Shown here: positions 37,637-55,968 of the stretch, in pieces
Layout: the number at the start of each line of letters is the position of its first letter
Position numbering within the stretch: the stretch's first letter is position 1
Source: Nitrospirota bacterium
GTDB lineage: Bacteria > Nitrospirota > Thermodesulfovibrionia > UBA6902
DNA: 64,000 bases
Reading direction: 5' to 3'
Assembly (NCBI GenBank): GCA_016214845.1
Contig: JACRMS010000028.1
Span: forward strand, 16,070-80,069
The notes under the pieces: model-generated
Told to the model about the DNA's origin: nothing
Database searches by the model: none
Seen by the model: the letters and a program-made list of their open reading frames with translations, nothing else
Translations under genes and position numbers: made by a program

Positions 37637-38029
37637 ATGCAAATGAAAAAAGCTGATGTTTCAAAAACGGGCTCGGTAGATGCAGTTTACTCAGGCATAA
37701 AGAAAATACTCGAAGAAGCACGCAGCACGGCATATCGGGCTGTAAACATTGCCATGGTTCAGGCGTACTGGAATATCGGCCGGGTAGTTGTAGAGGAAGA
37801 GCAGAAGGGGAAAACAAAGGCAGACTACGGGGAATACCTTATCAAGGAACTCGCGAAACGCCTGACAGTTGAGTTCGGAAAAGGCTTCACTGAGACTAAT
37901 CTGCGTTATATGAGGCTTTTTTATCTTTTGTTTAAAATTGCTAACGCAGAGAGTTCATTATTTCCGCTGAAAGGAATTCATCACGCAGTGCGTGATGAAT
38001 TGCCCGTTGTCAGGCCGGATCTGTCCTGA
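37637..38029 (+). pseudogene. N-terminal fragment of a DUF1016 (YhcG-like PD-(D/E)xK nuclease-related) gene; the C-terminal domain is missing
   Basis: EEARSTAYRAVNIAMVQAYWNIGRVVVEEEQKG..ADYGEYLIKELAKRL...GFTETNLRYMRLFYLLF matches the DUF1016 N-region. The ORF stops after 130 aa and about 1 kb with no coding capacity follows. Confidence 0.5.
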
Positions 38030-39021
38030 CCCATTATCGGCTATTATTGAAGGTGGAGAACGAGAATGCCCGTAATTTTTATCTGAATGAAGCTATCGTA
38101 TTAATAATAATGGGGCTCTGCCCCAAACCCCGGTTCATTTTCTTGCGCGGCCAAGAAAACGGAACCAAAAGAAGGCCGCCCGGTGATTGTTTTTTCACGG
38201 TATGCTTCATACCTGCCCGCTAAATTAAAAAAACTCGCTTCGCTCAAACAGTTTTTAATTCTTAACGCGTTCAGCCATGAACCATCCCTAAAACAATCGA
38301 AGGGGGATAAAGAAAAAAACAACTGCTCTGAAAAGAATGAGACGATAGTTAAGTACAGCGTGCTTAATGAAAACAAACAGATGTTCGCCTCCGGTACAAA
38401 CTTTACCTGCCGACAGAAGAGGAACTGGCGAAAGAGTTACGGCATGAGATTGAGTTGATAAGGGGGGAGAAGAAATTAATGTGATTTTATTAACCGAGTT
38501 ATTCACTTGAGTTGTTAAACTGTTCAAGCGGTTGAAACTTTTTCAGGAATGTATTTGATGCTATTTTTTATGATTCTGAAAATCGTATACCTGACTCCCG
38601 CCTTGCTACCGGCAGTACAATTTCAAGGGCAGCCCCCTTGTCTTTCTTTAAAATTGTCCTCGTTATAAACCTCTACACTACAAAGGCATATGGACTAGGC
38701 TTACATATTGAGATATTGAATTCAATTTTTAAGCCTGGCCCTGTTCTTCCCCCGTTGTAACCTCCTATAACCTCGTAGCCTACTAATATCGGGTATGCTT
38801 TTGCGTAGTGATCTACCTATCTACCAATGTCGCATATGTTTCGTAACTTTTTCAGGGTTACTTCCGATATTTTGTTCTTCCGAACTTCCGCGCTTCTATG
38901 CTATTGTACTGTTGTCAGGTTGTATATCGAAGAGCTGTCGTATTTCACGAGGGACAAATTGGGATAACGGCGTCAGATAGGTGCTTAAGGTATGTTAATG
39001 ATATAAGGGGGGTGGTTATCA

Positions 39022-42000
39022 GTGGTCGACGAATATATTCTATCTTGGCTTCATATATCTGATATTCATTTTGGTCACGGTTTTGCATCCGATAAATGGG
39101 ATCAAAAACTTGTCCTGAATAAATTGCTCGAAGATGTAGCCAATGCAAAAACGCGACAAATTCCAAAACCAGACTTTATTTTCGTCACCGGAGATATTGC
39201 AAATACTGGTCACGAATATGATGAGGCAACGGAATGGCTCATCCAGTTAGCTAATTCTATAGCGCTAGATGAAAATCACATATTTGTAATTCCCGGTAAT
39301 CATGATATTCAGAGAAACGTGGCAGGCTATGATCGTAATTTGCAAAGGTTGCTACATAATTTACGGTCTGGTGAAGAAAAAATAGACGACACATTTGCTC
39401 ATGATGAAGATAAATTTTTGTTGACTCAACGTCTCAGCAATTATTTGTCTTTTGCTCGTTCGTTTGCTCCTTTTCGATACATTCATAACCACGATGATTT
39501 GTTCTGGCATTATAGAATTACGCATAAATCGAATCTAATGATTTCATTGCTCGGATTAAATACAGCTTTGCTTGCCGAAGATCAATATGATAAAGGCAAG
39601 TTGCAACTTGGGCTTAAGCAATTAGAGGGTTTTTTGTTAGCTGATAAATCGGCTATGAATGAATTAAAAGTTGTGCTCAGTCATCATCCTTTTGATTGGT
39701 TATCGGATTATGAGACTGCGAGTCGATGGGTAAGAAATAATGCTCATATCCATCTTTATGGGCATATACACGGGACAGAATTTGAGAGTTTACGAGCTGG
39801 GAGCGGTAGCGAGTATATAAAGATTATATCCGGAGCAACTCATTCCCATTCTGACGAACCAGTTAGCCATGGTTATAACATAGCAGCCTTAGTTCATAAT
39901 CAGAAGGACAGCGAATATGGAGTTAGAGTTTGGCCTAGGTTATGGGTTGATCCTGCTAAAGAGTTTCGCGTTGATGTCAACAATGTGCCAGATGGATTGC
40001 ATTACGCTCAGCATAATTTGAAAGTTAGTTTTAACTCTGGTAGCCTATCTGCTGACACCTCATCGGACGAAAGCCCAATCCCCGTTATAATTAAGGTAGC
40101 CTCGTTTGGAAGTACACGATTATGGTCAAATTGTGATTCACCTCCGATTACTCCCTCGTGGGTTGGAAGACACGCTGAATTAGAATTGTTAAGTGATCCC
40201 TCAATTAAAGTATTGGCGATTACAGGCATTGGTGGACAGGGTAAATCTGCCTTGGCTGCTCGTTACATTGAACACAACGTGAATACTGAACAATTTTGGG
40301 ATTGGCGTGACTGTCGTGAGCAAGGCGATACATTACAAACGCATCTTATCAGGATTATTGAAAGAATAAGCAAGGGTCGAATTGCTTGCTCTGCCTTTAT
40401 TGATGAAGGAATTGTAGCTGTTATAGAGTTCTTTTTTGAAATATTAGATGACAAGAAGGGGTTTTTTGTTTTTGATAATATTGACCACTACATTGATGTG
40501 TCAGCTAATAAACCGGTGGAAGGAATAAAACTTTTAATAGATAATGCACTAAGGAAGAGGCATAATTCACAATTTATCTTCACTTGTCGTCCCACTGTTG
40601 CATATGACAATCATCCGGCATTTGTCCAAATTTCTTTGTTTGGCCTTTCAGAGCCTGAAACCCTTGAGTTATTCAAGTTGAGCGGAGTAGATGTTAAAAA
40701 GGGAAATACTCAACAAGGCATTGTCGAAGCTCAAAATCTCACTCAAGGGCATCCGTTGTGGTTAAATCTGATTGCAAAACAAGTTGCTAAGAATCAAAGA
40801 AATCTTGATGACATTTTAACGGACATGAGGCAGGGCAAGGACTTGGATCTTCCATCCGTCATGTTAAATGCAATATGGAAAACTCTAAATGATAAACAGC
40901 GCAAAATTCTTAGATATATGGCGGAAGCTGTTAGACCGGAAACAGAGGAACGTTTAGAAGAGTATATCTGTAATGAATTGAATTGGAATCAATTTAGCAA
41001 AGCGCTTCGAGTTTTGAAAGCCCTAAATCTAATAGTTATCAAGACAGCGCCAAACACTAAAAAAACCTTGGAATTGCATCCTTTAATTCGAAGTTTCATC
41101 AGAACAGAGTTTCCGATTAAAGAGCGTGAAAAATTTATTAATAAGATAGCATCTTTTTTTGATTTGCTAATTTCAAAAATGAGGGGAAGTATAGACAAGG
41201 GAGCCTCCTTTTCAATCTTAGAGCACTGGATATTTCGTGCAGAGCTGGCATTAAATGCTAATAATTACAAGATCGCTTTAAATATCCTCAATGAGGTTAA
41301 AAATGCTTTGCGAGCAACAGGGCATCCTGAAGAATTTGTTCGAGTAGCTAACCTTCTTTTTAAAGAACTCCTTTTTGCTGATGCTATTTTGAATGAATAT
41401 GCTCATTTTGACGATGTATTCAGTTCCTTTATTGATGTGCTATCTCACCTTGGGCAATACGAGCGCGCAGACACATTTTTAAGAAGGTATGAGGATGCGA
41501 TTGAGGGTAAAAGTGCGAGGTACGTTAATTTGTGTAATCTTCGTTGCTACATGTATTGGTGTAAAGGGGCTTATGAACCGGCAGTTGAATGGGGCAACCG
41601 AGGAGTTGAACTCAAGAAAAAGGCCAATATTGATACGCGATTTGAGTGTGAGCATAATCTCGCCTTGGCACAAAGAGATTCTGGAGATATAGCGTCAGCA
41701 TTAATCTTTTTTTTGAAAGGCCATGCTTTAGAAGAGGTGCTTGATCGAGAAAAAGTCGATGAAGACAGAGGTGGTCATTTTTATGGGAATATTGGACGTT
41801 GCCTCTGGTTTCAAGATAATATTGACGGAGCCTTAATATGCTACCAAAAAGCGATAGACTTGTTGGAGAAAGACGATCATGAGCCCAATATAATTGTTAA
41901 TAGAGGATGGGGAAATTTTTGGATTGGAGAAGCGTTAGAGAAAAAAGAAGATTTTCATGCGGCATATTGCTTTTATAAAAAAGCATTTAATTTATGGAAA

Positions 42001-42129
42001 TCTATTTTTCCAATAAAAGCTGCGACGGCGAATAGTAAAATCATAACAATTGCCAAAGATAATCCTGACTTTAATAATATTAATGATTACCAACTTGAGG
42101 CAGTCTGTAGTAGATGGTCGTGCAAGTGA
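39022..42129 (+). CDS. Calcineurin-like metallophosphoesterase fused to a STAND NTPase (NB-ARC-type P-loop) and C-terminal TPR-like helical repeats; candidate Avs-like defence protein
   Basis: The phosphoesterase motifs are LHISDIHFG (DxH), FVTGDIANTG (GD), VIPGNHD (GNHD/E) and LSHHP/GHIHG. Walker A is ITGIGGQGKSALAARY, Walker B-like is FFVFDNIDH, and a TTR-like FIFTCRP and GLPL-like QGHPLWL follow. The C-terminal ~400 aa are alpha-helical and TPR-like. GC is about 38%. Confidence 0.7.
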   Translation: MVDEYILSWLHISDIHFGHGFASDKWDQKLVLNKLLEDVANAKTRQIPKPDFIFVTGDIANTGHEYDEATEWLIQLANSIALDENHIFVIPGNHDIQRNVAGYDRNLQRLLHNLRSGEEKIDDTFAHDEDKFLLTQRLSNYLSFARSFAPFRYIHNHDDLFWHYRITHKSNLMISLLGLNTALLAEDQYDKGKLQLGLKQLEGFLLADKSAMNELKVVLSHHPFDWLSDYETASRWVRNNAHIHLYGHIHGTEFESLRAGSGSEYIKIISGATHSHSDEPVSHGYNIAALVHNQKDSEYGVRVWPRLWVDPAKEFRVDVNNVPDGLHYAQHNLKVSFNSGSLSADTSSDESPIPVIIKVASFGSTRLWSNCDSPPITPSWVGRHAELELLSDPSIKVLAITGIGGQGKSALAARYIEHNVNTEQFWDWRDCREQGDTLQTHLIRIIERISKGRIACSAFIDEGIVAVIEFFFEILDDKKGFFVFDNIDHYIDVSANKPVEGIKLLIDNALRKRHNSQFIFTCRPTVAYDNHPAFVQISLFGLSEPETLELFKLSGVDVKKGNTQQGIVEAQNLTQGHPLWLNLIAKQVAKNQRNLDDILTDMRQGKDLDLPSVMLNAIWKTLNDKQRKILRYMAEAVRPETEERLEEYICNELNWNQFSKALRVLKALNLIVIKTAPNTKKTLELHPLIRSFIRTEFPIKEREKFINKIASFFDLLISKMRGSIDKGASFSILEHWIFRAELALNANNYKIALNILNEVKNALRATGHPEEFVRVANLLFKELLFADAILNEYAHFDDVFSSFIDVLSHLGQYERADTFLRRYEDAIEGKSARYVNLCNLRCYMYWCKGAYEPAVEWGNRGVELKKKANIDTRFECEHNLALAQRDSGDIASALIFFLKGHALEEVLDREKVDEDRGGHFYGNIGRCLWFQDNIDGALICYQKAIDLLEKDDHEPNIIVNRGWGNFWIGEALEKKEDFHAAYCFYKKAFNLWKSIFPIKAATANSKIITIAKDNPDFNNINDYQLEAVCSRWSCK

Positions 42130-42270: not shown

Positions 42271-42468
42271 CTACTTCCTTTTCCCCAGAACATCAATCAT
42301 CAGGGGGATTGTACTGACTGCTCCAATAATCAGGAGCGTCCACCCTATCTTCTTTCTCTGATCATCTTTGAGCCTGTCTGCCAATAACAGACCTGCGCCT
42401 GCTCCTAGCATTGCGCGTGTGCCGGCTATGAGGGCGATTTCCGGTAAAGTCAAATCCGATTTCTTCAT
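42271..42468 (-). CDS. Small membrane protein (hypothetical)
   Basis: 65 aa with two predicted TM segments (GxGxG-rich). No recognisable family. Confidence 0.3.
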   Translation of the reverse strand: MKKSDLTLPEIALIAGTRAMLGAGAGLLLADRLKDDQRKKIGWTLLIIGAVSTIPLMIDVLGKRK

Positions 42469-42548: not shown

Positions 42549-42650
42549 GTATCCTCACCTCTACCGCATGTTCCTGCCGATCATCAACAAGCGGAATAGC
42601 ATTATCCGACTGCTCAACTCCATTGATGGTCACACTCGTTTCTCCGCTGC
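42549..42650. repeat. Degenerate direct-repeat copy (~82% identical) of the last ~100 bp (3' coding end) of the cgs-like gene at 44376-44477
   Basis: gtatcctcacctctaccgcatgttcctgccgatcatcaacaagcggaatagcattatccgactgctcaac... aligns to 44376-44477 with 18 mismatches in 102 nt. The copy carries stop codons in the corresponding frame. Confidence 0.65.
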
Positions 42651-42715: not shown

Positions 42716-44233
42716 CTATTCCTTAAGAACATAGTGGGTTGCCCTCCCGGCCCCCTTCTGTCTGATAAGTTCTAACGCCATGAGTCTCTTGAAGTCTCTA
42801 TTTGCCGTATCTCTTGTAATCCCAAAGGTCTTTGTACATTCCTCGCTGTTTATCCTTGCGTGACCGAGGATGTACTTGAGGATGTCTCTTTGTCTCGTTG
42901 TTAACTGGTTTAGTTTATCGGCGGGGACTTCAAAAACAACATTCAGCTTGCCAGGGTTAACCTTAAGAATATCCTCTGGCCCATGGAATGTGACTGTGAA
43001 ATAACCTGCGTCATAATCAAACATCGGAGGCTTAAGGCCGTAGTTAACCATCATATCGTGCATCCTTTTGAATCCGCCGCCCCTTTCTTCCATGAGTTTC
43101 ACGTCAAACAGGGCTCTGGCTATTATTGGATTCCGGGATACAGGGCGGTACTTAAATGATTTCACCATTTCAAGAGTCAATGGTTGAGGGAGTAGACCAG
43201 GGCTTGCTATCACTATCCTGTTACTAAAAATCTGGATCATCACTGTTGCGCCTGATATTCCATAATCCCTGTGAGCGAGGGCATTTATAACGGCCTCCCG
43301 CAATGCCTCAATAGGATACTCAGAAATCTGCACACGTGAAAAACCCTCAATTCTTGCGGCGGTCTTCATGTTCTTGAGGAAGAATGCCTCAGCATCTTTG
43401 ACCATATTAAAAATAGTGCCTTCCATCTCTTTTTGATCTATTGTGTTTGCCGGTCCAATGCCCTGAAAGGCATCTGCCTTTATCTTACTTTGAGGTAGAT
43501 AGTATTCAGGATGCTTGCCGAATAGAAGCAATCCGGCAACGGTTGGAACTAACAGTTTCTTACTGGGCAAATAATGAAGCATGTTCCTCTTTCTGAGGTG
43601 TTCTGTAATTTCGGCTTTACTTTTTAGTTGGAAGCCAGCCGTCTTAAAAAAGAATTCAGCATCTTTCAAGTAAATGTCATCCAGCAATGCATTCATTATG
43701 GGTTTTTTATCAATATTGAGTGAAGTCTTATCAATATCTGAAATACTTTTTCCAACCGGAAGGTCGACTCCGTGCTCTTTCTTGAGATAATGAACCAGTC
43801 CTTTGCGAATCCAATCCTTCAGCTCTCTGTAATTCTCAAATCTCTTGTAACTATATCCTTTATGTCCCTTGAATTCTTTCAATAACTTTTTGAGATTATC
43901 ATCCCTTTCAGTGTCTGTTTTTCCTTTGAGGAAAACGAGAATATATTTCCCGTCGGCCATTGCCTTTCTATATTCTCTTTCCGTCGGTGAAAGGCCGTCT
44001 TCATCGAGTGTGCCATATTCATTTCCGAATAGGCCGATGTACACATCGCACTCTTTCAGTTTTTCAAGATATGCCGCTCTTGAGGGTACCGCCATAGGAG
44101 GAAACCCTTCCCACATCTCGACATCAAAATAACGGCTGAGAAACTCATTCTCCATAATCGCCTCTTCAACGGCAAGGCGTTCATTCATGAGTTCTTTTAG
44201 GACAGAGCTGATGAATATCTTGATTTTCTTCAT
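42716..44233 (-). CDS. DUF4062 N-terminal domain fused to AlbA_2 (Schlafen-like divergent AAA_4), HATPase_c_4 and C-terminal wHTH
   Basis: N-terminus MKKIKIFISSVLKELMNERLAVEEA...CDVYIGLFGNEYG (DUF4062 pattern). The middle has LLFGKHPEYYLP (AlbA_2). It continues EAVINALAHRDY...IASPGLLP...RNPIIA (HATPase_c_4). The C-terminus is a DNA-binding HTH. Confidence 0.7.
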   Translation of the reverse strand: MKKIKIFISSVLKELMNERLAVEEAIMENEFLSRYFDVEMWEGFPPMAVPSRAAYLEKLKECDVYIGLFGNEYGTLDEDGLSPTEREYRKAMADGKYILVFLKGKTDTERDDNLKKLLKEFKGHKGYSYKRFENYRELKDWIRKGLVHYLKKEHGVDLPVGKSISDIDKTSLNIDKKPIMNALLDDIYLKDAEFFFKTAGFQLKSKAEITEHLRKRNMLHYLPSKKLLVPTVAGLLLFGKHPEYYLPQSKIKADAFQGIGPANTIDQKEMEGTIFNMVKDAEAFFLKNMKTAARIEGFSRVQISEYPIEALREAVINALAHRDYGISGATVMIQIFSNRIVIASPGLLPQPLTLEMVKSFKYRPVSRNPIIARALFDVKLMEERGGGFKRMHDMMVNYGLKPPMFDYDAGYFTVTFHGPEDILKVNPGKLNVVFEVPADKLNQLTTRQRDILKYILGHARINSEECTKTFGITRDTANRDFKRLMALELIRQKGAGRATHYVLKE

Positions 44234-44358: not shown

Positions 44359-47300
44359 TTATCCTTCTGCAACATGTATCCTCACCTCAACCATATGTTC
44401 CTGTTGGTCATCAACAAGCGGAATAGAATTATCAGGCTGCTCAACGCCATCGACCGTCACACCCGATCCCACGCTGCCATTGTGGGTTTGCAACACGGTG
44501 ATATGGTAGAGAGTCTCCCTGTACCGGTAGTGCACTTTGAACGACTCCCATTCAGCAGGAATGCATGGCGCAAAACGCAGTTTGTCCACTTCAAGCTTCA
44601 ACCCTAAAAGTGATTCCATGATAAGCCGGTACAGCCAGCCGGCCGAACCCGTATACCACGTCCATCCACCGCGGCCTGTGTGCGGTGAGACGGCATATAC
44701 ATCGGCTGCGACAACGTACGGTTCTACTTTGTAAATCTCTACCTCTTCCCGTGATCTCGAATGCCCCACCGGGTTGATCATTGTCAGCAGTTCCCACGCC
44801 CGGCGGCTGTCGCCTGACTTTGCGAACGCCATTGCCGCCCAGATCGCGGCATGAGTGTACTGCCCGCCATTTTCCCTGACCCCGGGGACATACCCTTTTA
44901 TATAGCCCGGATTCAAATCCGATTTATCAAACGGCGGGTCCAGAAGCTGTATCAGTCTATGCTCACGCCGGACAAGGCGTTTATCCAACGCCTCCATTGC
45001 CATGGCTGAGCGTTTGGCATCACCGGCTCCTGAGAGAACAGACCAGCTTTGCGCGATGGAATCGATCTGGCACTCGGAATTACCCGCTGAACCAAGCGGC
45101 GAGCCGTCATCGAAGAAAGCGCGGAGGTACCACTCACCGTCCCAGCCGTTCTGTTCGATATTACTGCGCAGATGGGCCGCTTCCTTCAAGCAGAGTTCGG
45201 CAACGGGCAGGTCTTCACGCAGGCGTGCGATCTCAGTGAACTGCATGAGCACTTTATAAAGAAAGAACCCCAGCCAAATGCTTTCGCCTTTGCCGTGTTC
45301 GCCCACCATGTTCATGCCGTCGTTCCAGTCGCCCGATCCGATGAGCGGCAGGCCGCGTTCACCAAAATTAAGGCCCTTCATGATCGCCTGCACACAATGA
45401 TCGTACAAACTTGCAGTTTGTTCAGACCGGATGGGAAGATCATAATACGAGTCCTCATCGGCGTTAACCTGGCGGCCCTCGATGAAGTGGATGAGTTCAT
45501 CCAGTACCCCGGTGTCTCCTGTGCTCATAACGTAGCGGGATGCAGCCAGCGGCAGCCAGAGGAAATCGTCTGAACAGCGGGTGCGCACGCCCCTTCCAGA
45601 TGGAGGATGCCACCAATGCTGGACATCACCTTCCTTGAACTGATGGGCCGCGCAAAGGAGCAGATGCTGACGCAGGAGGCCCGGTTCCGCGTGGATGAGC
45701 GACATCATGTCCTGTAACTGGTCGCGGAAACCGAAGGCGCCCCCTGACTGATAGTATCCGCTGCGCGCCCAAATGCGGCATGCAAGAGTCTGGTATAAGA
45801 GCCATCCATTGGTCAGGATATTGACTGACTGGTCGGGCGTTTCCACCTGCACTGCGCCAAGTGTGTGGTTCCAGTACTGCCACACTGCGTCAAGAGCGCC
45901 GCGCGCGGCAGCAGGACCCCGGAAACGAAACACCAGGTTAGCGGCGTCATCGGTATCTCGTCCTAACCCGAGCCTGAAGATGATCTCGCGCTCTTGTCCT
46001 TCAGCCAGATCGAACGGGACTTGAATGGCCGCACAGGGATCAAGTGCAGCGCCTACCTTGCCGGAAAGCCTCATCCTGGTCATAGCCGCAGGATTCCTAA
46101 GAGTGCCGTTACGTCCAAGGAATTCGGTCCGGTCGCTGCTTACAGTTCGGGTAAAATCATCTACGTCGAAGAATGCAACCCTGCCGGGGAATTCCATATT
46201 GTAAGGGTTTCGGGCGAAGAGTGCGCCGCTATTAGAATTGATCTCTGTGATGACATGCATTGCTGTTTTGGGGCGCAGATCTCCCAGCACCCATTCCACA
46301 TATCCTGTAGCGGAAAGCCGCCGGGGCCGGCCTGACTCGTTTCGCACCTTGATCACCGTGAACTTGACCGATGCGTCAATGGCCGAGTAAACCCAAACCT
46401 CCGAGTGTATACCGCGCTCTGTGTGCTCAAATACACTGTAGCCGAATCCGTGCCGTGTGACATAGGGCGTTGTCCCGCGGCAGGGCAGCGGAGCTGGAGA
46501 CCAGTAATGTCCGCGCTCTTCGTCACGGAGATAGAAGGCTTCACCGCTCGTGTCGCCCACCGGATCATTGCACCATGGAGTAAGGCGGAACTCATGTGCA
46601 TTCTCACCCCATGTGTAGGAAAGTCCGCTCTCTGAGATGACCGTTCCGAAGTGCGGATTCGCAAGCATATTCACCCATGGCGCAGGTGTCACCTGACCGG
46701 GAGTTGTCGTGATGATGTACTCGCGCCCGTCAGGCGTGAATCCGCCCAGCCCGTTGAAGAACGACAGGTCTTTGCGGGGCATAGCTGCGGCAGCCGGAGG
46801 TTCGGAGCGGTGGGTCCGTGTCGGAGTTAGGAGAGGCATTGTTATTTCCGCGGGACCGCGGCGGTTGATCTGGTCCGTTAATGACCCGCGGCTGTCGGTG
46901 ATGATGGCGCGCGCAACTGTTTGAAACAGTATCCGGTCCTCGTTGGATATCTGGTCCGCGGGCCTGACAAAAATGCCTCCGGGCTTATCTGTCACATTGG
47001 CTTCGATGCCCGCGGCAATGAGGCCCATGATCTGGTCGTTCAGCAGCTGCCGGTAACCGGCGTGGTCTTCGTTCCAGATCACCAGATCAACTACAAGTCC
47101 TTTTAAACGCCAGTAGGCATGTGCCTGCACGAGTTGGCGCACCAGGTTGATATTGGCAATATTTTCGATCTGCAGCAGTACGATCGGCAGATCGCCTGAG
47201 ATGGCGTATCCCCAGAGGCCGGATTGTCCCCGATGGTTCTTGATGAGGATGCTCGCGTCGGCCCGCAGGGAGGAATTGGCATAGATTATCGATCCGGCAA

Positions 47301-50300
47301 GACGCTCGTAGAGTTGCGCGTCGGCCTCCGAGGCATTGAATTGCCGCAGAAGCACCTGGCCATGTGTCCATGCAAGATCAAAGACGCGGTCCGCGAGGCG
47401 ACGATCATGGTATTTCTGCACAAGGCTTAAAGCTGAATCGCGGGATCCGCCTATGCCGGAGACAATGTCTATTGTGACCGATTCTTCCGGTTCCAGCGTT
47501 ATCCGATACCGGATAGAGACGATCGGATCGAGCACTGAGCCCTCACTGCCCGAGAGAGCACCGGTAAAAAAACCTCCCGCGCCGATCATCGCCTGCGGGC
47601 TGGCGACCGTGTTACCGCGGCCGATGAACTGCATGCGGTCCGTCTCGTAGGAGACTTCTCCTATCTCCGCGCCATGAACGGCCATCAGGTGAAACATCCA
47701 TGGTACGTGCTCTCCCTCAGAGCGTGGACGGCGTGTGCAAAGGATCGCACGCTGCATGCTTATGATCTCTGTCTGAACAAAGAGATTGCTGAATGCCGGA
47801 TGCAGTGCGTCAGCGGCTGGCGGCGCAAGGACCACTTCGGCGTAACTCGTAACATCAAGCGCCCTGCGCGTCCGCGCCCGGTTGGTAATGCGGACCCTGC
47901 GCAGTTCAATATCATCCTCAGGTGAAACAGCGATCTCGGTATGTGTGTCATAGTCGTGGTCCCTGCAGCGGAACTCCGCTTTAGACTCTGAGAAGATCGC
48001 TTCGTAAATGTCCGATTTATTGTCCGGCCGTTTCAGCGCAGGCTGATACGCGGTGGACCAGAACTCTCCGCTCGCAACGTCCCGGAGGTAACAGAACGTC
48101 CCCCAGTTGTCGCGGGTACTGTCTTCGCGCCAGCGTGTAACTGCGAGGTCCTTCCAGCGGCTGTAGCCGCCCCCGGCGTTCGTGATCATTACGTGGTATC
48201 TGCCGTTGGAGAGCAGCTGCACTTCCGGGTTTGAGGTATCAGGAGTGTTAAAAACGCGCACGGGCATTTCCGGCCCGATAAAGGCCGCCTGTATTTCGGA
48301 GAGCTCGGAAGTGTGCGAATAGAAAGCCGTGGCCTTCGGCACCCGCTCCTGAAGCAGCAGCATGGTTGCCTGGAACACCGGGTCCGCCTCGAAACGCTTC
48401 TGCATCGGACGGTCAAGCAGCAGATAGGCCAGAGATAGGAGGCTCATTCCCTGGTGATGCGCCATGAAAGACCGGACCAGCGTGTTTGAATGCCCGCGTC
48501 GTTGGCGTGAAGAAGTGTAGTCGATCGCTTCATAGAAGCCGTACCTCCCTTCAAAACCATCAGCGGCGAGACGCTGCAGGTTCAAGCACGCCTCCTCGGG
48601 CGCGATCATCAGCGCGAGAGTCGAGGCATATGGTGCAATGACGAGGTCCTCGGCGAGTCCGCGTTTCAACCCCAGGCCGGGCACGCCAAACGCGCGATAC
48701 TGGTAGTTGAGATGAACGTCGATCATATTGTAGCTGGATTCCGATATGCCCCACGGAACGCCGCGCTGACTTCCATACTCGATCTGCCTGTTTACCGCGG
48801 CCTTATAGGTCTGGTCCAGCAGCGTGTGTTCGTACGTCGGCATCACCAGAAGCGGCATAAGGTACTCGAACATCGAACCGCTCCACGAAAGGAGGATCGG
48901 CTCTCCGCTCGTAGTGGTGAGCAGGCGTCCAAGGGCGAACCAGTTTTCCTGCGGCAGTTGTCCTTGCGCGATCGCTACGAAACTGCACAATCTCGCTTCC
49001 GAGGCCAGCAGATCATAATAACTTGAATCTCTCCTGCGCTCATCAACGTTGTACCCGATGGTCAGCAGATGACGCGTTTCATCATACAGGAAATCATATT
49101 CCATGCGGGAGAGTTCGCCGCACTGCATTGCAAGCCGTTCAATGGACTGAATTCTTGATTTGGCGCGTTCGCTTGCCTCTGCGTCACGATTTGCCAGTTC
49201 GCGCAGCGTCGGTATCTCATCGATACCTTGAACTGTCGTCGGTACAAGGAACGTCAGCTCATCAAGAGCATTCCGGCATTGATCTGCAAAGGCGCGTGCC
49301 CACCAGTTCATTTCGCTGTCTGGAGAGTTGTCGATGCTGCCGATCAGCTCTTCGGCGGACAATGCCAGCCGCTCAAGGGATGACCGCGCTGCCATAAGCG
49401 ATGCAGACGGAAAATTATACAGGGATTCCATATCCTTCTGAAGTTGTGCGAGCCTGGACGGAACAGCTTTTGCTGTAACGTCCGCGAGAATTCTCAGTGT
49501 GTCGTTGAGTCCGTCAAATAATTTTTCTCCCAATATCTTTTGATCGGGAAGTGTGAGCAGTCCTGTCCGTAATGTCAGAAGGTGAGCGGCGAGGTTCCCG
49601 CTGTCTACCGTTGAAATGTAGGTGGGCGGCAGCGGTTTCAGAGACTGAGTGTCATACCAGTTGTAGAAGTGTCCCCGGTGACGTTCCATGCCTTTCATGG
49701 TGCGCAGCGCATTGTCAGTGCGCTCTATGAGTTGTCCGGCTGAAATGTAACCGAAGTCATACGCGGACAAATTCGCGAGCAATGCGAGTCCCATGTTGGT
49801 CGGCGATGTACGATGAGCGACTGAAGCAATGCGATACTCCTGATAGTTATCGGGAGGCAGCCAGTTATCTTCCGGGCCTACGAAGGTCTCGAAGAACGCC
49901 CATGTCTTTCTGGAAAGCTTCCGGAGAAAGATCGTCTGGTCCTCTGTCAGCCTTGCCCGGCTGCGGGCGAGCGGCTGGCTGATCCACCACGCGGTAACAG
50001 GGGAGGAAAACCAGAGACATAATACAGGCACGGCCACTGGTAGAGCGGCCGGATTCGAAAGCGCCAGATAGATCACCGCTGCAAAGGCAACAAGCGGAGC
50101 GGACCACATCGTCCGGCAGAATGCAGCGATATCTCCCGCATTGCTATCATTGCGGTCCCGGCCGCTGTGCGGATTCCACTCCAAAAGCCGTTTGCGCGTG
50201 ATCAGCATTCTCCCGGTTGAACGAACGATCGCATCCAGCGTGAAGAATGCCTCGTAGGGGAGACACACGAGAGTAAATGCGGCCTGAGCAAAGCGCCAGC

Positions 50301-53001: not shown

Positions 53002-53022
53002 GTTTAAGGTCTCCTTATGAGA

Positions 53023-53052
53023 AGTAGGGGCGTATTGCCATACGCCCCTACT
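53023..53052. promoter_or_regulatory. AGTAGGGGCG...CGCCCCTACT palindrome (variant of 35951-35980) immediately upstream of the cgs-like start
   Basis: agtaggggcgtattgccatacgcccctact. It lies in the 5' leader if the start is TTG 53001, or in codons 7-16 if the start is ATG 53070. Confidence 0.4.
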
Positions 53053-53371
53053 CATTAAATGGAATAGCAATCAGGGTGGTGTTTGACTGTTCCTCCATGG
53101 TGGCCGGTGTTATGTTGTAGTGTTATCATTATAGCAGAATAGCAGATTGCTATCTTGAAAGCTGCGGTCCGAAGGGGCGAACAGCCCGTCCGGCGCTGGT
53201 AGTGGGTCAGTTTGAAATTTGAGGGGAAATTAAAAAGTTATTTACATTCTTCAAGATATTTAAAATAGTCAGAACGACTCATTTTTGCTGTATGCATCAA
53301 GTTAATAATAATATCTTCATCCCGGCGCTGCCCTCTTTGAAATTTCTCGCAATAGAGTTTAATCTATCCTG

Positions 53372-53704
53372 ATGGCAAAACCTGAATTTGAACAGTTCGG
53401 AATAACGAAAGAACAGTTTGATTCCATTTACGCAAAAAAAGAAAAAATTCGGAATTACACTTTCGGGATTAGTTCAGCAGCCGGCATCCTTGCGGGATGT
53501 ATGTACGGCATATACCTGTCGTATGGTGTTTATGAAACTATATTGTTTATTCTCTTCTTCGGCTGCTTCCTCGGCAGTATCTTCGGAGGGGTCTTCACCA
53601 TGATCGTAATTGCGCTGTATGTCTTTCTCCTCTATATCTTCTCCCCGGCCTACAGAAGATGCAGACAATATCTCGCCGCAAAATCCAAAGCGAGGCCAGC
53701 TTAA
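53372..53704 (+). CDS. Small membrane protein (hypothetical)
   Basis: 110 aa with two or three TM helices after a soluble N-terminus. No recognisable family. Confidence 0.3.
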   Translation: MAKPEFEQFGITKEQFDSIYAKKEKIRNYTFGISSAAGILAGCMYGIYLSYGVYETILFILFFGCFLGSIFGGVFTMIVIALYVFLLYIFSPAYRRCRQYLAAKSKARPA

Positions 53705-53860
53705 CATCAGACAATTGCAAGGTTAGCCCCTCTATCTTTTTTTCTTCTTGAAAAGTAAACGGTTACATAGTTATGATATTGCATAACCTAATTTAAACTT
53801 TTTAATCAGAGGGGACTGTTGAATTCAATACTTGCCATGCATATTTTTAATATTAATTAA

Positions 53861-53914
53861 AGTTCCCAAATAGTGAACTTTTAACTTGACATGATAATGG
53901 GAACTTTATTATAT
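53861..53914 (+). promoter_or_regulatory. Putative sigma70-type promoter (TTGACA-17-TTATAT) with two AAGTTCCC-type operator half-sites upstream of higB
   Basis: TTGACA at 53886-53891, then 17 nt, then ttatat at 53909-53914. Inverted repeat agttcccaaatagtgaact at 53861-53879 and gggaacttt at 53898-53906 overlap the -35 to -10 spacer. This is the expected layout for HigA autorepression. Confidence 0.35.
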
Positions 53915-53958
53915 TATTTACATGGAAGGTAGATTTCACAAGTTAATAAGGAAACTGA

Positions 53959-54243
53959 ATGACGTTAGTAGGCCGGGAAAAACTATACCAGTTCATTACC
54001 AAGCATCCAGATACTCGTAGTTTGATAGAGAATTGGATAGCAGATGTTCAAAACGCTAACTGGCAAAACACACAGGATGTCAAGGATCGATATTCAAGCG
54101 CCAGTTTCTTGGCTGATAGAATAGTGATCTTTAATGTAAGAGGTAATAGTTATAGGCTTGAGGTCCAAATTGCTTATAAAACCAAAAAGGTCATTGTGAA
54201 ATGGGCAGGGACACATGCTGAGTATTCAAAAAGATTTAAGTAG
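53959..54243 (+). CDS. higB: HigB-family (YgjN-like) RelE/ParE-superfamily toxin
   Basis: IFNVRGNSYRLEVQIAYKTKKVIVKWAGTHAEYS aligns to E. coli HigB VFNVGGNELRVVAMVFFESQKCYIREVMTHKEYD. Length 94 aa. Confidence 0.75.
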   Translation: MTLVGREKLYQFITKHPDTRSLIENWIADVQNANWQNTQDVKDRYSSASFLADRIVIFNVRGNSYRLEVQIAYKTKKVIVKWAGTHAEYSKRFK

Positions 54244-54258
54244 CTCTAACCAGGACAA

Positions 54259-55464
54259 ATGAAAATGGAACCGAAAATTATTAAAACAGAAATAAATTAC
54301 AAACAAACGCTCGCCGAAGTCGAACGCTTAATCGCGCTCGATCCTGAACCAGGAACTCCGGAAGCGGACCGTTTGGATTTATTTTCATTGCTTGTAGAAA
54401 ATTATGAAAAAGAACATTTCCTCTTCAATTTACCAAGCCCTATAGATGCAATCAACTTTAGAATTGAAGAGCAGGGATTGAAACAAAAAGACTTGATTCC
54501 ATATATTGGCAGCAAAAGCAAGGTTTCTGAAGTATTATCCGGGAAACGGCCTCTGACTATTCAAATGATTAGAGAGCTTCATAAAGGTTTAGACATACCC
54601 GCTGAAGTTTTACTGCAAGATATCCATAAGCCAAAAACAAACAAGTCGTTTGAAAAAGATTGGAATAAATTTCCAGTTAAAGAAATGGTTAAGCGTGGCT
54701 GGATTACCACAAAATATCGTGATTTGGATGCTCATGCAGAAGAGTTAATGAAGCAGTTTTTCGCTCCTCTGGGGGGTGAAATTCCGAGCGTTGCAATTTG
54801 CCGGCGTACAATACACAAAAGGGCTAAGCAAGAGACAGATATGAATGCTCTTTTAGTATGGACCGCCCGCGTAATGATCAGGGCACATGAAGAATGTTGC
54901 CCGTCAGAATTTTTTCCTGGGACTGTGACAAAAGATTTCTTGAGAGAGGTTGCTCGGTTAAGTTGTTTTGATAAAGGCCCATTATTAGCCAAAGAATTTT
55001 TAGAGAAACATGGCATAGCCCTCATTATCGAGCCACATTTACCCAAGACATTACTTGATGGTGGTTCAATGCTAACAGATGCTGGCGGGCCAGTAATAGG
55101 GCTTACTATCCGACATGATCGGATCGATAATTTCTGGTATACACTTGTTCATGAGTTATTGCATGTGGCTAAACACCTGAAGAATGCGGAGGAAATATTT
55201 ATTGATGATCTTTATTCCGAATCCGGGGAAGATCCTAAAGAAAAGGAAGCAGATAGATTAACAAAAGAAACATTCATTCCACGCTCAATATGGATTAGGA
55301 GCGATGCTTATCTTAAAAGAAGTCCTGGCGCGATCATACAACTTGCAAAAGAATTGCGAATTCACCCTGCGATCGTTGCAGGCAGAATTCGTTGGGATAC
55401 AGGGAATTATACGCTTTTCAATCAATTAATTGGACAAGGTGAAGTCAAGAAATTATTCATATAA
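54259..55464 (+). CDS. higA: HigA-type HTH antitoxin fused to an ImmA/IrrE-family (COG2856) zinc metallopeptidase domain
   Basis: N-terminal IGSKSKVSEVLSGKRPLTIQMIRELHKGLDIPAEVLL matches E. coli HigA (IGSKSMVSRVLSGKRKLTLEHAKKLATRFGISPALF). The C-terminal 280 aa carry HEXXH (VHELLHVAKH) and a downstream EADRLTKE, typical of ImmA/IrrE peptidases. Confidence 0.7.
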   Translation: MKMEPKIIKTEINYKQTLAEVERLIALDPEPGTPEADRLDLFSLLVENYEKEHFLFNLPSPIDAINFRIEEQGLKQKDLIPYIGSKSKVSEVLSGKRPLTIQMIRELHKGLDIPAEVLLQDIHKPKTNKSFEKDWNKFPVKEMVKRGWITTKYRDLDAHAEELMKQFFAPLGGEIPSVAICRRTIHKRAKQETDMNALLVWTARVMIRAHEECCPSEFFPGTVTKDFLREVARLSCFDKGPLLAKEFLEKHGIALIIEPHLPKTLLDGGSMLTDAGGPVIGLTIRHDRIDNFWYTLVHELLHVAKHLKNAEEIFIDDLYSESGEDPKEKEADRLTKETFIPRSIWIRSDAYLKRSPGAIIQLAKELRIHPAIVAGRIRWDTGNYTLFNQLIGQGEVKKLFI

Positions 55465-55490
55465 GGATTTAAGAATTTTGGTGAATTAAA

Positions 55491-55853
55491 ATGTTTGACT
55501 ATAATCATTATGTTCCAATACTAAAAGCAAAAGATGGTGAATTCGGTGCGTTATTAGAACTTCCGGAAGAAATCAAGAGCAGAATAACTCCATTAATTGA
55601 TATCTTTAATTCTGAATCCGAAATTTCATTAGAAAAGCGTCTGATTAAAATTGCACATAAAATAGAAACTTCATGGGGAAATACTCGCCCTATTTTTATA
55701 GACCCATTCGGGATTAACTTGAAAGAACGAGTTTTGGGAGGCAAACATCCTTTAACCTTTATTTTTGACCTCTTGAGAAAGCTTAATATCAAGGCTATTC
55801 CATTAACGGGATTTGAGAGAGATGAGGCTCTTATACCTAAAGACTGGCTCTAA
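55491..55853 (+). CDS. Hypothetical protein in the AT-rich islet with higBA
   Basis: 120-aa ORF with a plausible RBS and no recognisable family. Confidence 0.3.
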   Translation: MFDYNHYVPILKAKDGEFGALLELPEEIKSRITPLIDIFNSESEISLEKRLIKIAHKIETSWGNTRPIFIDPFGINLKERVLGGKHPLTFIFDLLRKLNIKAIPLTGFERDEALIPKDWL

Positions 55854-55968
55854 GCTATTGCTGACATCCTCCTCAAAAACCTACTAATACATATCTTGAA
55901 CAACAAGGAGTCTTGCATCTTGAATTCTAAAAAAGATCAAACATATGGAAGCGTGAAAGAGCCATGCT

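What the first reader, a model, noticed from the sequence alone, without database searches (positions are those of the whole stretch)
39022..42129. Single-gene candidate antiviral STAND: metallophosphoesterase effector, NB-ARC NTPase and TPR sensor
The 1035-aa protein has the tripartite logic of Avs/bNACHT-type defence proteins: an N-terminal enzymatic effector, a central STAND P-loop NTPase, and a C-terminal helical repeat sensor. The effector here is a calcineurin-like metallophosphoesterase with all canonical metal-binding motifs (DxH, GD, GNHD, and the His-rich blocks). The central module has Walker A GIGGQGKS, an hhhhD Walker B, and TTR/GLPL-like motifs. I do not recognise this effector choice as a described defence architecture. 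The gene is AT-rich (about 38% GC against about 50% for the core). It sits in an island next to a decayed DUF1016 nuclease gene and a DUF4062/Schlafen-like gene, which fits an accessory defence role.
Basis: partly seen in the sequence, partly recalled or inferred. Interest (0 to 1): 0.8.

Follow-up and report, generated by a model that had tools for sequence, protein, structure and literature searches.

The report
Phosphoesterase-armed STAND defence gene, known type
This is an intact single-gene, NLR-like bacterial immune protein whose "warhead" is a calcineurin-like phosphoesterase, an architecture already validated against phage in E. coli (DS-8), so it is a well-supported but not a new kind of defence gene.

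Summary
ORF 39022-42129 (+) encodes 1035 aa. It has an N-terminal metallophosphoesterase with every metal-binding motif intact. Its central STAND NTPase has Walker A and B, sensor-1 Arg, GHPL and an MHD-like LHP motif. The C-terminus is a TPR-like solenoid. The gene sits in a low-GC patch (0.38 against 0.48).

The defence reading is well supported. The NOD-TPR "chassis" is a small, patchily distributed clade. The same chassis carries SIR2 (most often), TIR, Mrr, HD-CE or Schlafen domains in place of the phosphoesterase. There is no conserved synteny, and chassis relatives often sit beside known defence genes.

The novelty claim is not supported. Calcineurin-like effectors on STAND proteins were catalogued in 2021-2022, and a metallophosphatase-NACHT single protein (DS-8) was validated in E. 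coli with catalytic and Walker A mutants. This protein is not a DS-8 family member. Only the effector aligns (115 bits against a cut-off of 790), and no PADLOC v2 or NCBIfam 2026 model covers its chassis.

The likeliest mechanism is that ligand binding drives oligomerisation, which switches on the effector to hydrolyse NAD+ or nucleotides and abort the infection. This is inferred from the homologous MisA / PUA-Cal domain. Verdict: new member of a known kind, modest interest.

The parts
39005..39012 (+). Shine-Dalgarno-like AAGGGGGG, 9 nt upstream of the GTG start
   Evidence: Read directly
39022..42129 (+). Whole gene: 1035-aa MPE-STAND-TPR protein (stop codon at 42127-42129)
   Evidence: An identical protein is annotated 'metallophosphoesterase' in a Nitrospirota MAG.
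39022..40041 (+). N-terminal calcineurin-like metallophosphoesterase effector (aa 1-340). It includes a helical insert at about aa 100-145 and a C-terminal beta subdomain at about aa 282-333.
   Evidence: Pfam Metallophos E 1.6e-12. PADLOC PDC-S60 and 'Effector' at E 1e-28. NCBIfam DS8 N-terminal 274 positions at E 1.9e-33. Domain model pLDDT 90, pTM 0.91. Fold matches.
39061..39069 (+). MPE motif I, D14-I-H16
39190..39195 (+). MPE motif II, G57-D58 (D58 corresponds to DS-8 D52)
   Evidence: Invariant in the family. DS-8 mutant list.
39295..39306 (+). MPE motif III, G92-N93-H94-D95 (N93 corresponds to DS-8 N84)
   Evidence: Invariant
39682..39687 (+). MPE motif IV, H221-H222
   Evidence: Invariant
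39760..39771 (+). MPE motif V, G247-H248-I-H250
   Evidence: Invariant G, H, H
40039..40128 (+). Disordered, poorly conserved linker (aa 340-369) between effector and NOD. It is also the point at which effector-swapped relatives diverge.
   Evidence: pLDDT below 50 over aa 340-369. Relatives with other effectors align from about aa 370.
40129..41115 (+). STAND NTPase module (NBD, helical domain, winged helix; aa 370-698), NB-ARC/AP-ATPase-like
   Evidence: Profile hit to 6mfv at E 4.8e-16. Foldseek hits to 6mfv, Apaf-1, MalT, NRC1 and CED-4. Pfam NB-ARC at 20.9 bits here and 37-40 bits in relatives.
40225..40248 (+). Walker A, GIGGQGKS (K408 corresponds to DS-8 K375)
   Evidence: Invariant
40462..40485 (+). 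Walker B, FFVFD485-N-I-D488
   Evidence: D485, N486 and D488 are invariant
40582..40593 (+). Sensor-1 / RNBS-B-like TCRP (R523)
   Evidence: T521, R523 and P524 are invariant
40747..40758 (+). GxP motif, GHPL (equivalent to GLPL)
   Evidence: G576 and H577 are invariant
41074..41082 (+). MHD-like LHP in the winged-helix domain
   Evidence: L685, H686 and P687 are invariant
41116..42126 (+). C-terminal TPR-like helical solenoid (aa 699-1035), the presumed sensor. It has many invariant residues, including W846, D871, R885, D886, G922, N923, R926, N960 and W992.
   Evidence: All-helical in the model, pLDDT mostly above 90. TPR_8 and TPR_12 hits. Invariant columns. Conserved to the C-terminal end in SIR2-, TIR- and Mrr-bearing relatives.
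37637..38500 (+). Context: decayed DUF1016 (PADLOC PDC-S02) nuclease gene upstream
   Evidence: DUF1016_N E 9e-27. PDC-S02 E 2e-38. Stops and a frame change.
42716..44233 (-). Context: DUF4062 + HATPase_c_4 + wHTH gene, probably a separate defence cassette, bracketed by a 102-nt direct repeat

Best explanation
The gene encodes a stand-alone NLR-like (Avs-like) immune sensor.

Shown here:
- The protein is an intact three-module STAND with a catalytically competent-looking calcineurin-like phosphoesterase at the N-terminus.
- Its NOD-TPR chassis belongs to a small clade in which the N-terminal module is exchanged between phosphoesterase, SIR2, TIR, Mrr, HD-CE and Schlafen domains.
- The gene is horizontally mobile and has no fixed partner gene.

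Inferred from how STAND/Avs/NLR proteins work:
- In the resting state the ADP-bound NOD and the TPR arm keep the protein monomeric and the effector off.
- An infection-derived ligand, most likely a phage protein, binds the conserved TPR surface.
- Binding permits nucleotide exchange at the Walker A/B site and oligomerisation.
- Oligomerisation brings the N-terminal effectors together and activates them.

Inferred from experiments on the homologous Calcineurin-CE domain of MisA / PUA-Cal:
- The activated effector hydrolyses pyrophosphate or phosphodiester bonds in NAD+ (to NMN + AMP) and/or in (d)NDPs.
- This collapses an essential nucleotide pool and aborts the infection.
For: Architecture and motifs.

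Effector homology to validated or candidate defence effectors:
- NCBIfam DS8_antiphage, E 1.9e-33 over its first 274 positions, and DS9_1.
- PADLOC PDC-S60 and 'Effector', E about 1e-28.
- A family member (P0076) matches the Cal domain of DS9_1 almost end to end, at 131 bits.

Precedent: DS-8 shows that a metallophosphatase-STAND single protein defends E. coli and needs both the metal-site residues and the Walker A lysine.

Effector swapping on the same chassis:
- Among 211 relatives the N-termini are SIR2 119, MPE 57, an unknown module 11, Mrr 6, TIR 5, Schlafen 2 and HD-CE 1.
- In reference genomes SIR2 accounts for 55 of 67.
- Effector types are interleaved on a chassis tree.
- Most alternative effectors target NAD+ or nucleotides, which fits the NAD+ cleavage shown for MisA and the dNDP-to-dNMP activity plus NAD+ cleavage shown for PUA-Cal.

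Accessory character:
- GC is 0.38 against 0.48.
- The chassis forms 261 clusters at 50% identity among 1.84 billion representatives.
- Members are scattered over more than 10 phyla.
- There is no conserved synteny.
- Neighbours of chassis relatives include SIR2-HerA, BREX PglX, a type I methyltransferase, DRT4, DRT6, LmuA, MADS genes, integrases and resolvases.

Fold: the effector is closest to small-molecule phosphodiesterases.
Against: - No experiment exists on this protein or on any member of its chassis clade that I could find.
- No PADLOC v2 model (AVAST included) and no NCBIfam model covers the NOD-TPR part.
- Several loci of full-length MPE homologs sit among ordinary metabolic genes with no defence neighbour.
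- The defence-neighbour count comes mostly from SIR2-bearing relatives and has no matched background control.
- The substrate is extrapolated from a domain that this protein matches only partly: DS9_1 at 50 bits over aa 10-104.
- The two studies of that domain disagree on the physiological substrate, NAD+ or dNTP/dNDP. In PUA-Cal the dNTP route needs a HAD partner, which is absent here.
- The trigger is unknown.
Confidence: 0.62

Rival explanations
1. Same STAND switch, but the phosphoesterase acts as a nuclease on DNA or RNA (Mre11/SbcD-like). It would degrade phage or host nucleic acid rather than free nucleotides.
For: - PADLOC labels its matching 561-aa 'Effector' model 'Endonuclease'.
- Weak NCBIfam hits to SbcD and Mre11.
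- An Mrr-type DNase occupies the same position on some chassis relatives.
Against: - SbcD and Mre11 scores are far below their cut-offs: 29.5 against 77.65 bits, and 14.3 against 600.
- The best sequence and fold matches are Lmo2642, Rv0805, GpdQ and SMPDL3A/B.
- There is no Rad50/SbcC partner or Mre11 capping domain.
- The only biochemistry on the homologous conflict-effector domain shows nucleotide and NAD+ substrates.
Confidence: 0.14
2. Same STAND switch, but the effector destroys a cyclic or oligonucleotide signalling molecule. This is what the DS-8 authors propose by analogy with SMPDL3A cleaving cGAMP. The molecule could be a signal the phage needs or a host second messenger.
For: - The DS-8 paper's interpretation.
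- Fold and profile similarity to the cyclic-nucleotide phosphodiesterases Lmo2642 and Rv0805/Icc, and to SMPDL3A/B.
Against: - No cyclase or other signal-producing gene is linked in any of the loci examined.
- The interchangeable effectors on this chassis are pool-depleting or destructive enzymes, not signal erasers.
- The CpdA model scores 15 bits against a cut-off of 225.
Confidence: 0.12
3. Not immunity at all: a housekeeping signal-transduction STAND in which a regulated phosphodiesterase tunes a cellular nucleotide second messenger. This would be analogous to the mycobacterial adenylate cyclase-NB-ARC-TPR proteins (that comparison is from my own knowledge).
For: - STAND-TPR proteins such as MalT and PH0952, the closest solved relatives, are regulators rather than immune proteins.
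- Several homolog loci have only metabolic neighbours.
Against: - Distribution is patchy across phyla and the family is small.
- GC is atypical for the host.
- There is no synteny.
- The effector is exchanged with SIR2, TIR, Mrr, HD-CE and Schlafen domains.
- Chassis relatives have defence and mobile-element neighbours.
- The effector is homologous to validated anti-phage proteins.
Confidence: 0.08

Closest known systems
DS-8 (E. coli WP_032203427.1; DefensePredictor, Science 2026, PMC13092281)
   Same: - A single protein of about 1,000 aa (about 1,014 against 1,035).
- An N-terminal metallophosphatase homologous to this one (E 1.9e-33 to the NCBIfam DS8 model).
- A central STAND P-loop NTPase.
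- The tested residues D52, N84 and K375 correspond in order and spacing to D58, N93 and K408 here.
   Different: - Only the first 274 of 994 model positions align, at 115 bits against the 790-bit cut-off.
- The DS-8 NTPase is described as NACHT. This one scores better as NB-ARC and belongs to a chassis clade that mostly carries SIR2.
- I could not obtain the DS-8 sequence for a direct comparison of the NOD and C-terminal regions.
Calcineurin-CE effector family: MisA of Metis, which is PUA-Cal of PUA-Cal-HAD, which is DS-9A (bioRxiv 2025.11.05.686725; 10.64898/2026.01.15.699771; family defined by Nicastro et al. 2023, which is not held and is cited through those papers)
   Same: - A calcineurin-like phosphoesterase used as the effector of conflict systems.
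- The same metal-binding motifs.
- NCBIfam DS9_1 hits at E 1.7e-13 for this protein and 131 bits over the whole Cal domain for family member P0076.
- The module also travels with TIR, Schlafen, EAD, WD40 and GTPase-associated systems.
   Different: - In those systems the sensor is a PUA-like domain that binds m6dAMP, the assembly is a hexamer or filament, and a HAD partner gene is present.
- Here the sensor and switch is a STAND-TPR module, and no HAD gene is linked.
Avs (AVAST) and bacterial NLR-like antiviral STANDs (Gao et al. 2020 and 2022; Kibby et al. 2023; the first two cited from my own knowledge)
   Same: - A tripartite layout of variable N-terminal effector, STAND NTPase and C-terminal TPR-type sensor.
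- Single-gene systems.
- Effector swapping on a conserved chassis.
- Patchy, island-associated distribution.
   Different: - No PADLOC v2 AVAST model matches this protein or its SIR2, TIR or Mrr relatives at the thresholds used.
- Solved Avs structures are not among the top 50 Foldseek matches. PH0952, Apaf-1 and MalT are closer.
- The trigger is unknown.
PH0952 (PDB 6mfv), Apaf-1 / CED-4 / plant NB-ARC, and MalT
   Same: Closest solved structures for the NOD and TPR arm: profile E 4.8e-16 and Foldseek E 1e-14 to 1e-9. The GxP and MHD-like motifs are typical of this branch.
   Different: Those proteins carry CARD, TIR, CC or DNA-binding outputs or none. None has a phosphoesterase effector. Sequence identity is only 14-18%.
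B. subtilis YydB (PDB-Dev-type integrative model 9a6c_B, YydD-YydB)
   Same: By far the best structural match to the effector domain: TM 0.77, E 1.9e-21, 20% identity.
   Different: The entry is a modelled complex, not an experimental structure. YydB is a separate 481-aa protein paired with YydD rather than fused to a STAND. I found no functional literature on it.

Membership tests
STAND NTPase (NB-ARC / AP-ATPase branch) | P-loop NTPase with Walker A GxxxxGK[ST] and Walker B hhhhD | tested here: met
   GIGGQGKS at 402-409 and FFVFD485, invariant in 46 homologs
STAND NTPase (NB-ARC / AP-ATPase branch) | Sensor-1 Arg, a GxP motif in the helical domain, and a conserved His (MHD-like) in the winged helix | tested here: met
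   R523 (TCRP), GHPL 576-579 and LHP 685-687 are invariant
STAND NTPase (NB-ARC / AP-ATPase branch) | Match to the curated Pfam NB-ARC model at the gathering score | tested here: inconclusive
   20.9 bits against a cut-off of 23.5 for this protein. Chassis relatives reach 37-40 bits. The family profile hits the solved STAND 6mfv at E 4.8e-16. Foldseek hits to Apaf-1, CED-4 and NRC1 have probability 1.0.
Antiviral STAND (Avs / bacterial NLR-like) | Tripartite layout: N-terminal effector, STAND NTPase, C-terminal repeat sensor | tested here: met
Antiviral STAND (Avs / bacterial NLR-like) | N-terminal effector exchanged among close chassis relatives | tested here: met
   SIR2, MPE, TIR, Mrr, HD-CE, Schlafen and an unknown module occur on chassis that are 30-56% identical
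Antiviral STAND (Avs / bacterial NLR-like) | Sequence membership in a described Avs family (PADLOC AVAST models) | tested here: not met
   No AVAST model among the hits at E <= 0.1 for this protein, or at E <= 1e-3 for nine relatives
Antiviral STAND (Avs / bacterial NLR-like) | Protects against phage; activated by a phage-derived ligand | not testable with these tools
   Needs cloning and phage challenge
DS-8 (NCBIfam NF053861, equivalog) | Whole-protein score at or above the curated cut-off (790 bits) | tested here: not met
   115.3 bits; only model positions 1-274 of 994 align
DS-8 (NCBIfam NF053861, equivalog) | Homologous N-terminal metallophosphatase with the residues shown to be essential (D52, N84) | tested here: met
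   E 1.9e-33 to the N-terminal part of the model. D58 and N93 are present and invariant.
DS-8 (NCBIfam NF053861, equivalog) | NACHT-type NTPase | tested here: inconclusive
   Pfam NACHT at 15.3 bits (cut-off 26.7) against NB-ARC at 20.9.
Calcineurin-CE conflict effector | Calcineurin-like fold with a complete dinuclear metal site | tested here: met
Calcineurin-CE conflict effector | Occurs in the effector position of diverse conflict systems | tested here: met
   Relatives at 38-45% identity are fused to TIR, AlbA_2, EAD (PF19955/56/62), HEAT, WD40 and FHA domains. It is the first gene of GASH GTPase-associated operons on plasmids.
Calcineurin-CE conflict effector | Sequence relationship to the experimentally studied Cal domain (MisA / DS-9A) | tested here: inconclusive
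   DS9_1 at 50 bits over aa 10-104 only for this protein. It scores 131 bits over model positions 190-484 for family member P0076. The defining paper (Nicastro 2023) and its profiles were not available.
Calcineurin-CE conflict effector | Hydrolyses NAD+ and/or (d)NDP | not testable with these tools
   Needs biochemistry
Mre11 / SbcD nuclease | Curated family score, and a Rad50/SbcC partner | tested here: not met
   TIGR00619 at 29.5 bits against 77.65. The Mre11 and SbcD equivalogs score 14-19 bits against cut-offs of 450-600. There is no SMC-like neighbour in the window.
Class III cyclic-nucleotide phosphodiesterase (CpdA / Icc / Rv0805) | Curated family score | tested here: not met

The most novel reading that the evidence does not exclude
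The NB-ARC/TPR chassis is a compact clade of about 260 clusters at 50% identity. No PADLOC v2 or NCBIfam 2026 model covers it. It may be an as yet undescribed Avs-like family whose strongly conserved TPR surface recognises one conserved, still unknown trigger. Its phosphoesterase version would then be the first STAND-gated nucleotide or NAD+ pyrophosphatase that works without a HAD partner. It would deplete NAD+ to NMN + AMP, a route that the Metis authors predict phage NAD+-reconstitution pathway 1 cannot reverse.
Probability: 0.3. Interest if true: 0.5.

Novelty: new member of a known kind. Interest (0 to 1): 0.3.

Why it matters
- **Chassis diversity.** If this gene is active, the validated metallophosphatase-STAND design (DS-8, from E. 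coli) extends to a second, unrelated STAND chassis found in Nitrospirota, Myxococcota, Desulfobacterota and other environmental phyla.
- **A natural experiment.** One sensor chassis carries SIR2, TIR, Mrr, HD-CE, Schlafen or phosphoesterase effectors. That could help settle which substrate the Calcineurin-CE domain attacks in cells; the two current studies disagree between NAD+ and dNTP/dNDP.
- **Limits.** It does not open a new category of immune mechanism.

Tried and rejected
- **Papers not held.** Nicastro et al. 2023 (the paper that defines Calcineurin-CE) is not held under its DOI or its PMC id. The DUF4062 'NIR' preprint is not held either, so I could use only its abstract snippet from the search list.
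- **DS-8 sequence.** I identified the accession (WP_032203427.1) but could not fetch the sequence. tblastn against plasmids found GASH GTPase-associated operons and chassis relatives instead.
- **Phage search.** tblastn against phages found nothing.
- **Literature searches.** Searches for YydB and PDC-S60 returned noise or nothing.
- **Single-sequence PDB search.** It gave only marginal hits; the family profile was needed.
- **Island boundaries.** There is no tRNA in the window. No integrase turned up among the ORFs I scanned around the gene.
- **Promoter and terminator scan.** It found fewer sites than in shuffled sequence, so it is uninformative.
- **Readings rejected.** Membership of Mre11/SbcD, CpdA and Avs1-5 was considered and rejected on score.
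- **Caveats on my own analyses.** The chassis tree is neighbour-joining without support values. The defence-neighbour count has no matched background and overlapping model hits. Both are indicative only.

Full report
**1. The observation**

The ORF is at the stated coordinates: 39022..42129, + strand, GTG start, 1035 aa. An AAGGGGGG Shine-Dalgarno sequence lies 9 nt upstream. The N-terminus lines up with homologs.

The gene has GC 0.383 against 0.482 for the window. Its GC3 is 0.32 against 0.64 in the neighbouring 2903-aa gene. The low-GC patch runs from about 37.4 to 44.3 kb.

An identical protein is annotated simply as "metallophosphoesterase" in a Nitrospirota MAG. It occurs on metagenome contigs with the same neighbours.

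**2. Domains**

*Effector (aa 1-340).*
- Pfam Metallophos, E 1.6e-12, above threshold.
- All five metallophosphoesterase motifs are present: DIH 14-16, GD 57-58, GNHD 92-95, HH 221-222 and GHIH 247-250. They are invariant or nearly so in 46 full-length homologs and in 40 effector-only homologs.

*NTPase (aa about 370-698).*
- Walker A is GIGGQGKS and Walker B is FFVFD-N-x-D.
- Sensor-1 is TCRP, the GxP motif is GHPL, and a winged-helix LHP motif is MHD-like.
- All are invariant in the family.
- In this one sequence Pfam NB-ARC is just under threshold (20.9 against 23.5 bits) and NACHT is weaker, so I sought independent support:
  - The family profile hits the solved STAND-TPR protein PH0952 (6mfv) at E 4.8e-16 over positions 376-865.
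  - The AlphaFold2 model (mean pLDDT 85.5) has 6mfv, Apaf-1, MalT, NRC1, CED-4 and RPP1 as top Foldseek matches.
  - Chassis relatives score NB-ARC at 37-40 bits.

*C-terminus (aa about 699-1035).* It is an all-helical solenoid with weak TPR hits and many invariant residues.

*Linker.* A disordered, unconserved stretch (aa 340-369) separates effector and NOD.

**3. What the relatives show**

Full-length homologs at 31-51% identity occur in metagenomes and in genomes such as Nannocystis pusilla and Desulfotalea psychrophila.

The C-terminal 64% (NOD + TPR) is 36-45% identical to proteins whose N-terminus is a different domain. Three tallies agree:
- Among 67 chassis relatives from species-representative genomes, the N-terminal domain is SIR2 in 55, TIR in 5 and Mrr in 2.
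- Among 211 relatives pooled from two searches, the N-termini cluster as follows:

| N-terminal module | Relatives |
|---|---|
| SIR2 | 119 |
| Phosphoesterase (MPE) | 57 |
| Module with no Pfam match | 11 |
| Mrr | 6 |
| TIR | 5 |
| Schlafen/AlbA_2 | 2 |
| HD-CE | 1 |

- On a neighbour-joining tree of the chassis the effector types are interleaved. Some SIR2 chassis (44.9% identity) are closer to this protein than many phosphoesterase chassis (38.9% or less). This suggests more than one exchange, although the tree has no support values.

The chassis is a small and sharply bounded family. An exhaustive HMMER scan of 1.84 billion representatives gives 261 clusters at E <= 1e-30 and only 813 at E <= 1e-3. 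Members are spread over more than ten phyla.

The effector itself is also a mobile module.
- Relatives at 38-45% identity are fused to TIR, AlbA_2, HEAT, WD40, FHA and effector-associated domains, mainly in Myxococcota.
- More distant relatives (26-32% identity) form the first gene of a conserved five-gene GASH "GTPase-associated system" operon. That operon occurs on plasmids of Klebsiella, Pantoea, Aeromonas, Burkholderia and Agrobacterium.

**4. Genomic context**

Seven loci of full-length homologs share no neighbours and have no HAD or cyclase partner.
- Some lie next to an Mrr-type nuclease, a TIR protein, caspase/WD40 genes, toxin-antitoxin pairs or ORF6N genes.
- Others lie among ordinary metabolic genes.

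For chassis relatives in 32 reference genomes I scanned the two nearest ORFs on each side, 128 ORFs in all.
- No Pfam family occurs in more than three of them, so there is no synteny.
- At least about ten are strong full-length matches to known defence proteins: SIR2-HerA, BREX PglX, a type I methyltransferase, DRT4, DRT6, LmuA and MADS mad2/3/8.
- Integrases, resolvases and a phage portal gene are also present.
- This sample is mostly SIR2-type relatives and has no matched control, so it is indicative only.

In the window itself the gene is flanked by two defence-type features:
- A decayed DUF1016/PDC-S02 gene lies upstream.
- A DUF4062 + HATPase_c_4 + wHTH gene lies on the other side.

**5. 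Which substrate?**

Sequence and fold place the effector nearer to small-molecule phosphodiesterases than to Mre11/SbcD.
- Profile hits go to Lmo2642, GpdQ and Rv0805/Icc ahead of SbcD and Mre11.
- Foldseek ranks YydB first (TM 0.77, E 1.9e-21). SMPDL3B/3A, Lmo2642, GpdQ and Rv0805 follow at E about 1e-10 to 1e-9, with Mre11 at about 1e-6.

Two experimental studies address the homologous conflict-effector domain.
- MisA of Metis cleaves NAD+ to NMN + AMP once activated. Its authors predict that this chemistry is common in defence.
- PUA-Cal converts dNDP to dNMP downstream of a HAD phosphatase, and it also cleaves NAD+ in vitro.

Most alternative effectors on this chassis target NAD+ or nucleotides (SIR2, TIR, HD-CE), and no HAD partner is present. 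I therefore favour NAD+/nucleotide hydrolysis. This step is inferred, not shown.

**6. Mechanism proposed**

- Resting state: a monomer held off by the NOD and the TPR arm.
- A phage-derived ligand binds the conserved TPR surface.
- Nucleotide exchange at the Walker site allows oligomerisation.
- Oligomerisation clusters and activates the phosphoesterase.
- NAD+ or nucleotide pools collapse and the infection aborts.

The anatomy, the effector swapping and the accessory distribution are shown here. The switch is inferred from established STAND/Avs/NLR biology. The chemistry is inferred from MisA / PUA-Cal.

**7. Comparison with what is known**

Calcineurin-like phosphoesterases were already listed as effectors on bacterial STAND/NACHT proteins (PMC8195603; bioRxiv 2022.07.19.500537).

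DS-8 from E. coli is a metallophosphatase + NACHT single protein of about 1,014 aa. It defends against phage, and D52A, N84A and K375A abolish defence. Those residues correspond to D58, N93 and K408 here.

PADLOC already holds a candidate, PDC-S60, with the same effector at its N-terminus.

This protein is nevertheless not a DS-8 family member.
- It scores 115 bits against the 790-bit cut-off.
- Only the effector aligns.

No AVAST or other PADLOC v2 model, and no NCBIfam model, covers its NOD-TPR part or that of its SIR2, TIR and Mrr relatives.

It works like DS-8 and Avs proteins and belongs to the same kind of system. It represents a chassis lineage for which I found no experimental work.

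**8. Verdict**

The feature is real and the defence interpretation is well supported, but the architecture is already described and validated elsewhere. It is a new member of a known kind. Interest is about 0.3.

The most novel reading not excluded is that the chassis is an undescribed Avs-like family. Its phosphoesterase form would be a HAD-independent, STAND-gated NAD+/nucleotide pyrophosphatase. I put the probability of this at about 0.3.

Noticed in passing
window 42549-42650 and 44376-44477: A 102-nt direct repeat (about 82% identical) brackets the DUF4062 gene. The right copy is the true 3' end (last ~34 codons) of the 2903-aa gene at 44359-53070 (-), and the left copy is a degenerate duplicate. 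It looks like an insertion scar. If so, the DUF4062 cassette arrived separately from the MPE-STAND gene, at the 3' end of that gene.
   Followed up: partly
window 42716-44233 (-): A 505-aa protein with DUF4062 (E 4e-19), HATPase_c_4 (E 8e-24) and a C-terminal wHTH. Its middle region resembles the PNTD region of SIR2-associated pAgo partner proteins in PADLOC. A 2026 preprint abstract renames DUF4062 'NIR', an NADase of bacterial immunity (the paper is not held). It is probably a second, independent defence gene.
   Followed up: partly
window 53000-56000: A second low-GC patch (0.37-0.39). It holds a 401-aa ORF with weak HTH_3 and Peptidase_M78 (IrrE-like) hits at 54259-55464. It also holds a 120-aa ORF at 55491-55853 that matches only the first third of Pfam 'Beta_protein' (E 1.2e-19), so it looks like a truncated gop-beta-cII-type gene.
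   Followed up: partly
proteins P0320, P0298 and nine others: Eleven chassis relatives share an N-terminal module of 166-222 aa that has no Pfam match. It may be an uncharacterised effector sitting where SIR2, TIR or the phosphoesterase sits in the others.
   Followed up: no
loci L089-L093 (plasmids of Klebsiella, Pantoea, Aeromonas, Burkholderia, Agrobacterium): A conserved five-gene operon recurs on mostly conjugative plasmids. It consists of a 425-450-aa metallophosphoesterase (26-32% identical to this effector), GASH ('GTPase-associated system all-helical protein'), a GTPase-domain protein and two further proteins.
   Followed up: partly
proteins P0127-P0226: Many 500-590-aa proteins, mostly from Sorangium, Byssovorax and other Myxococcota, fuse this phosphoesterase (38-44% identity) directly to a C-terminal TIR domain. 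That puts two NAD+/nucleotide-directed enzymes in one protein without a STAND.
   Followed up: no
PDB entry 9a6c chain B (B. subtilis YydB): The effector's best structural match by far is YydB in a modelled YydD-YydB complex (TM 0.77, E 1.9e-21). No functional literature was found. YydB/YydD may be another system that uses this effector type.
   Followed up: partly
window 42271-42468 (-): A 65-aa ORF with two hydrophobic stretches lies just downstream of the STAND gene on the opposite strand. It is also called as a gene on the independent metagenome contig L001, together with a 48-aa ORF. Its function is unknown.
   Followed up: no
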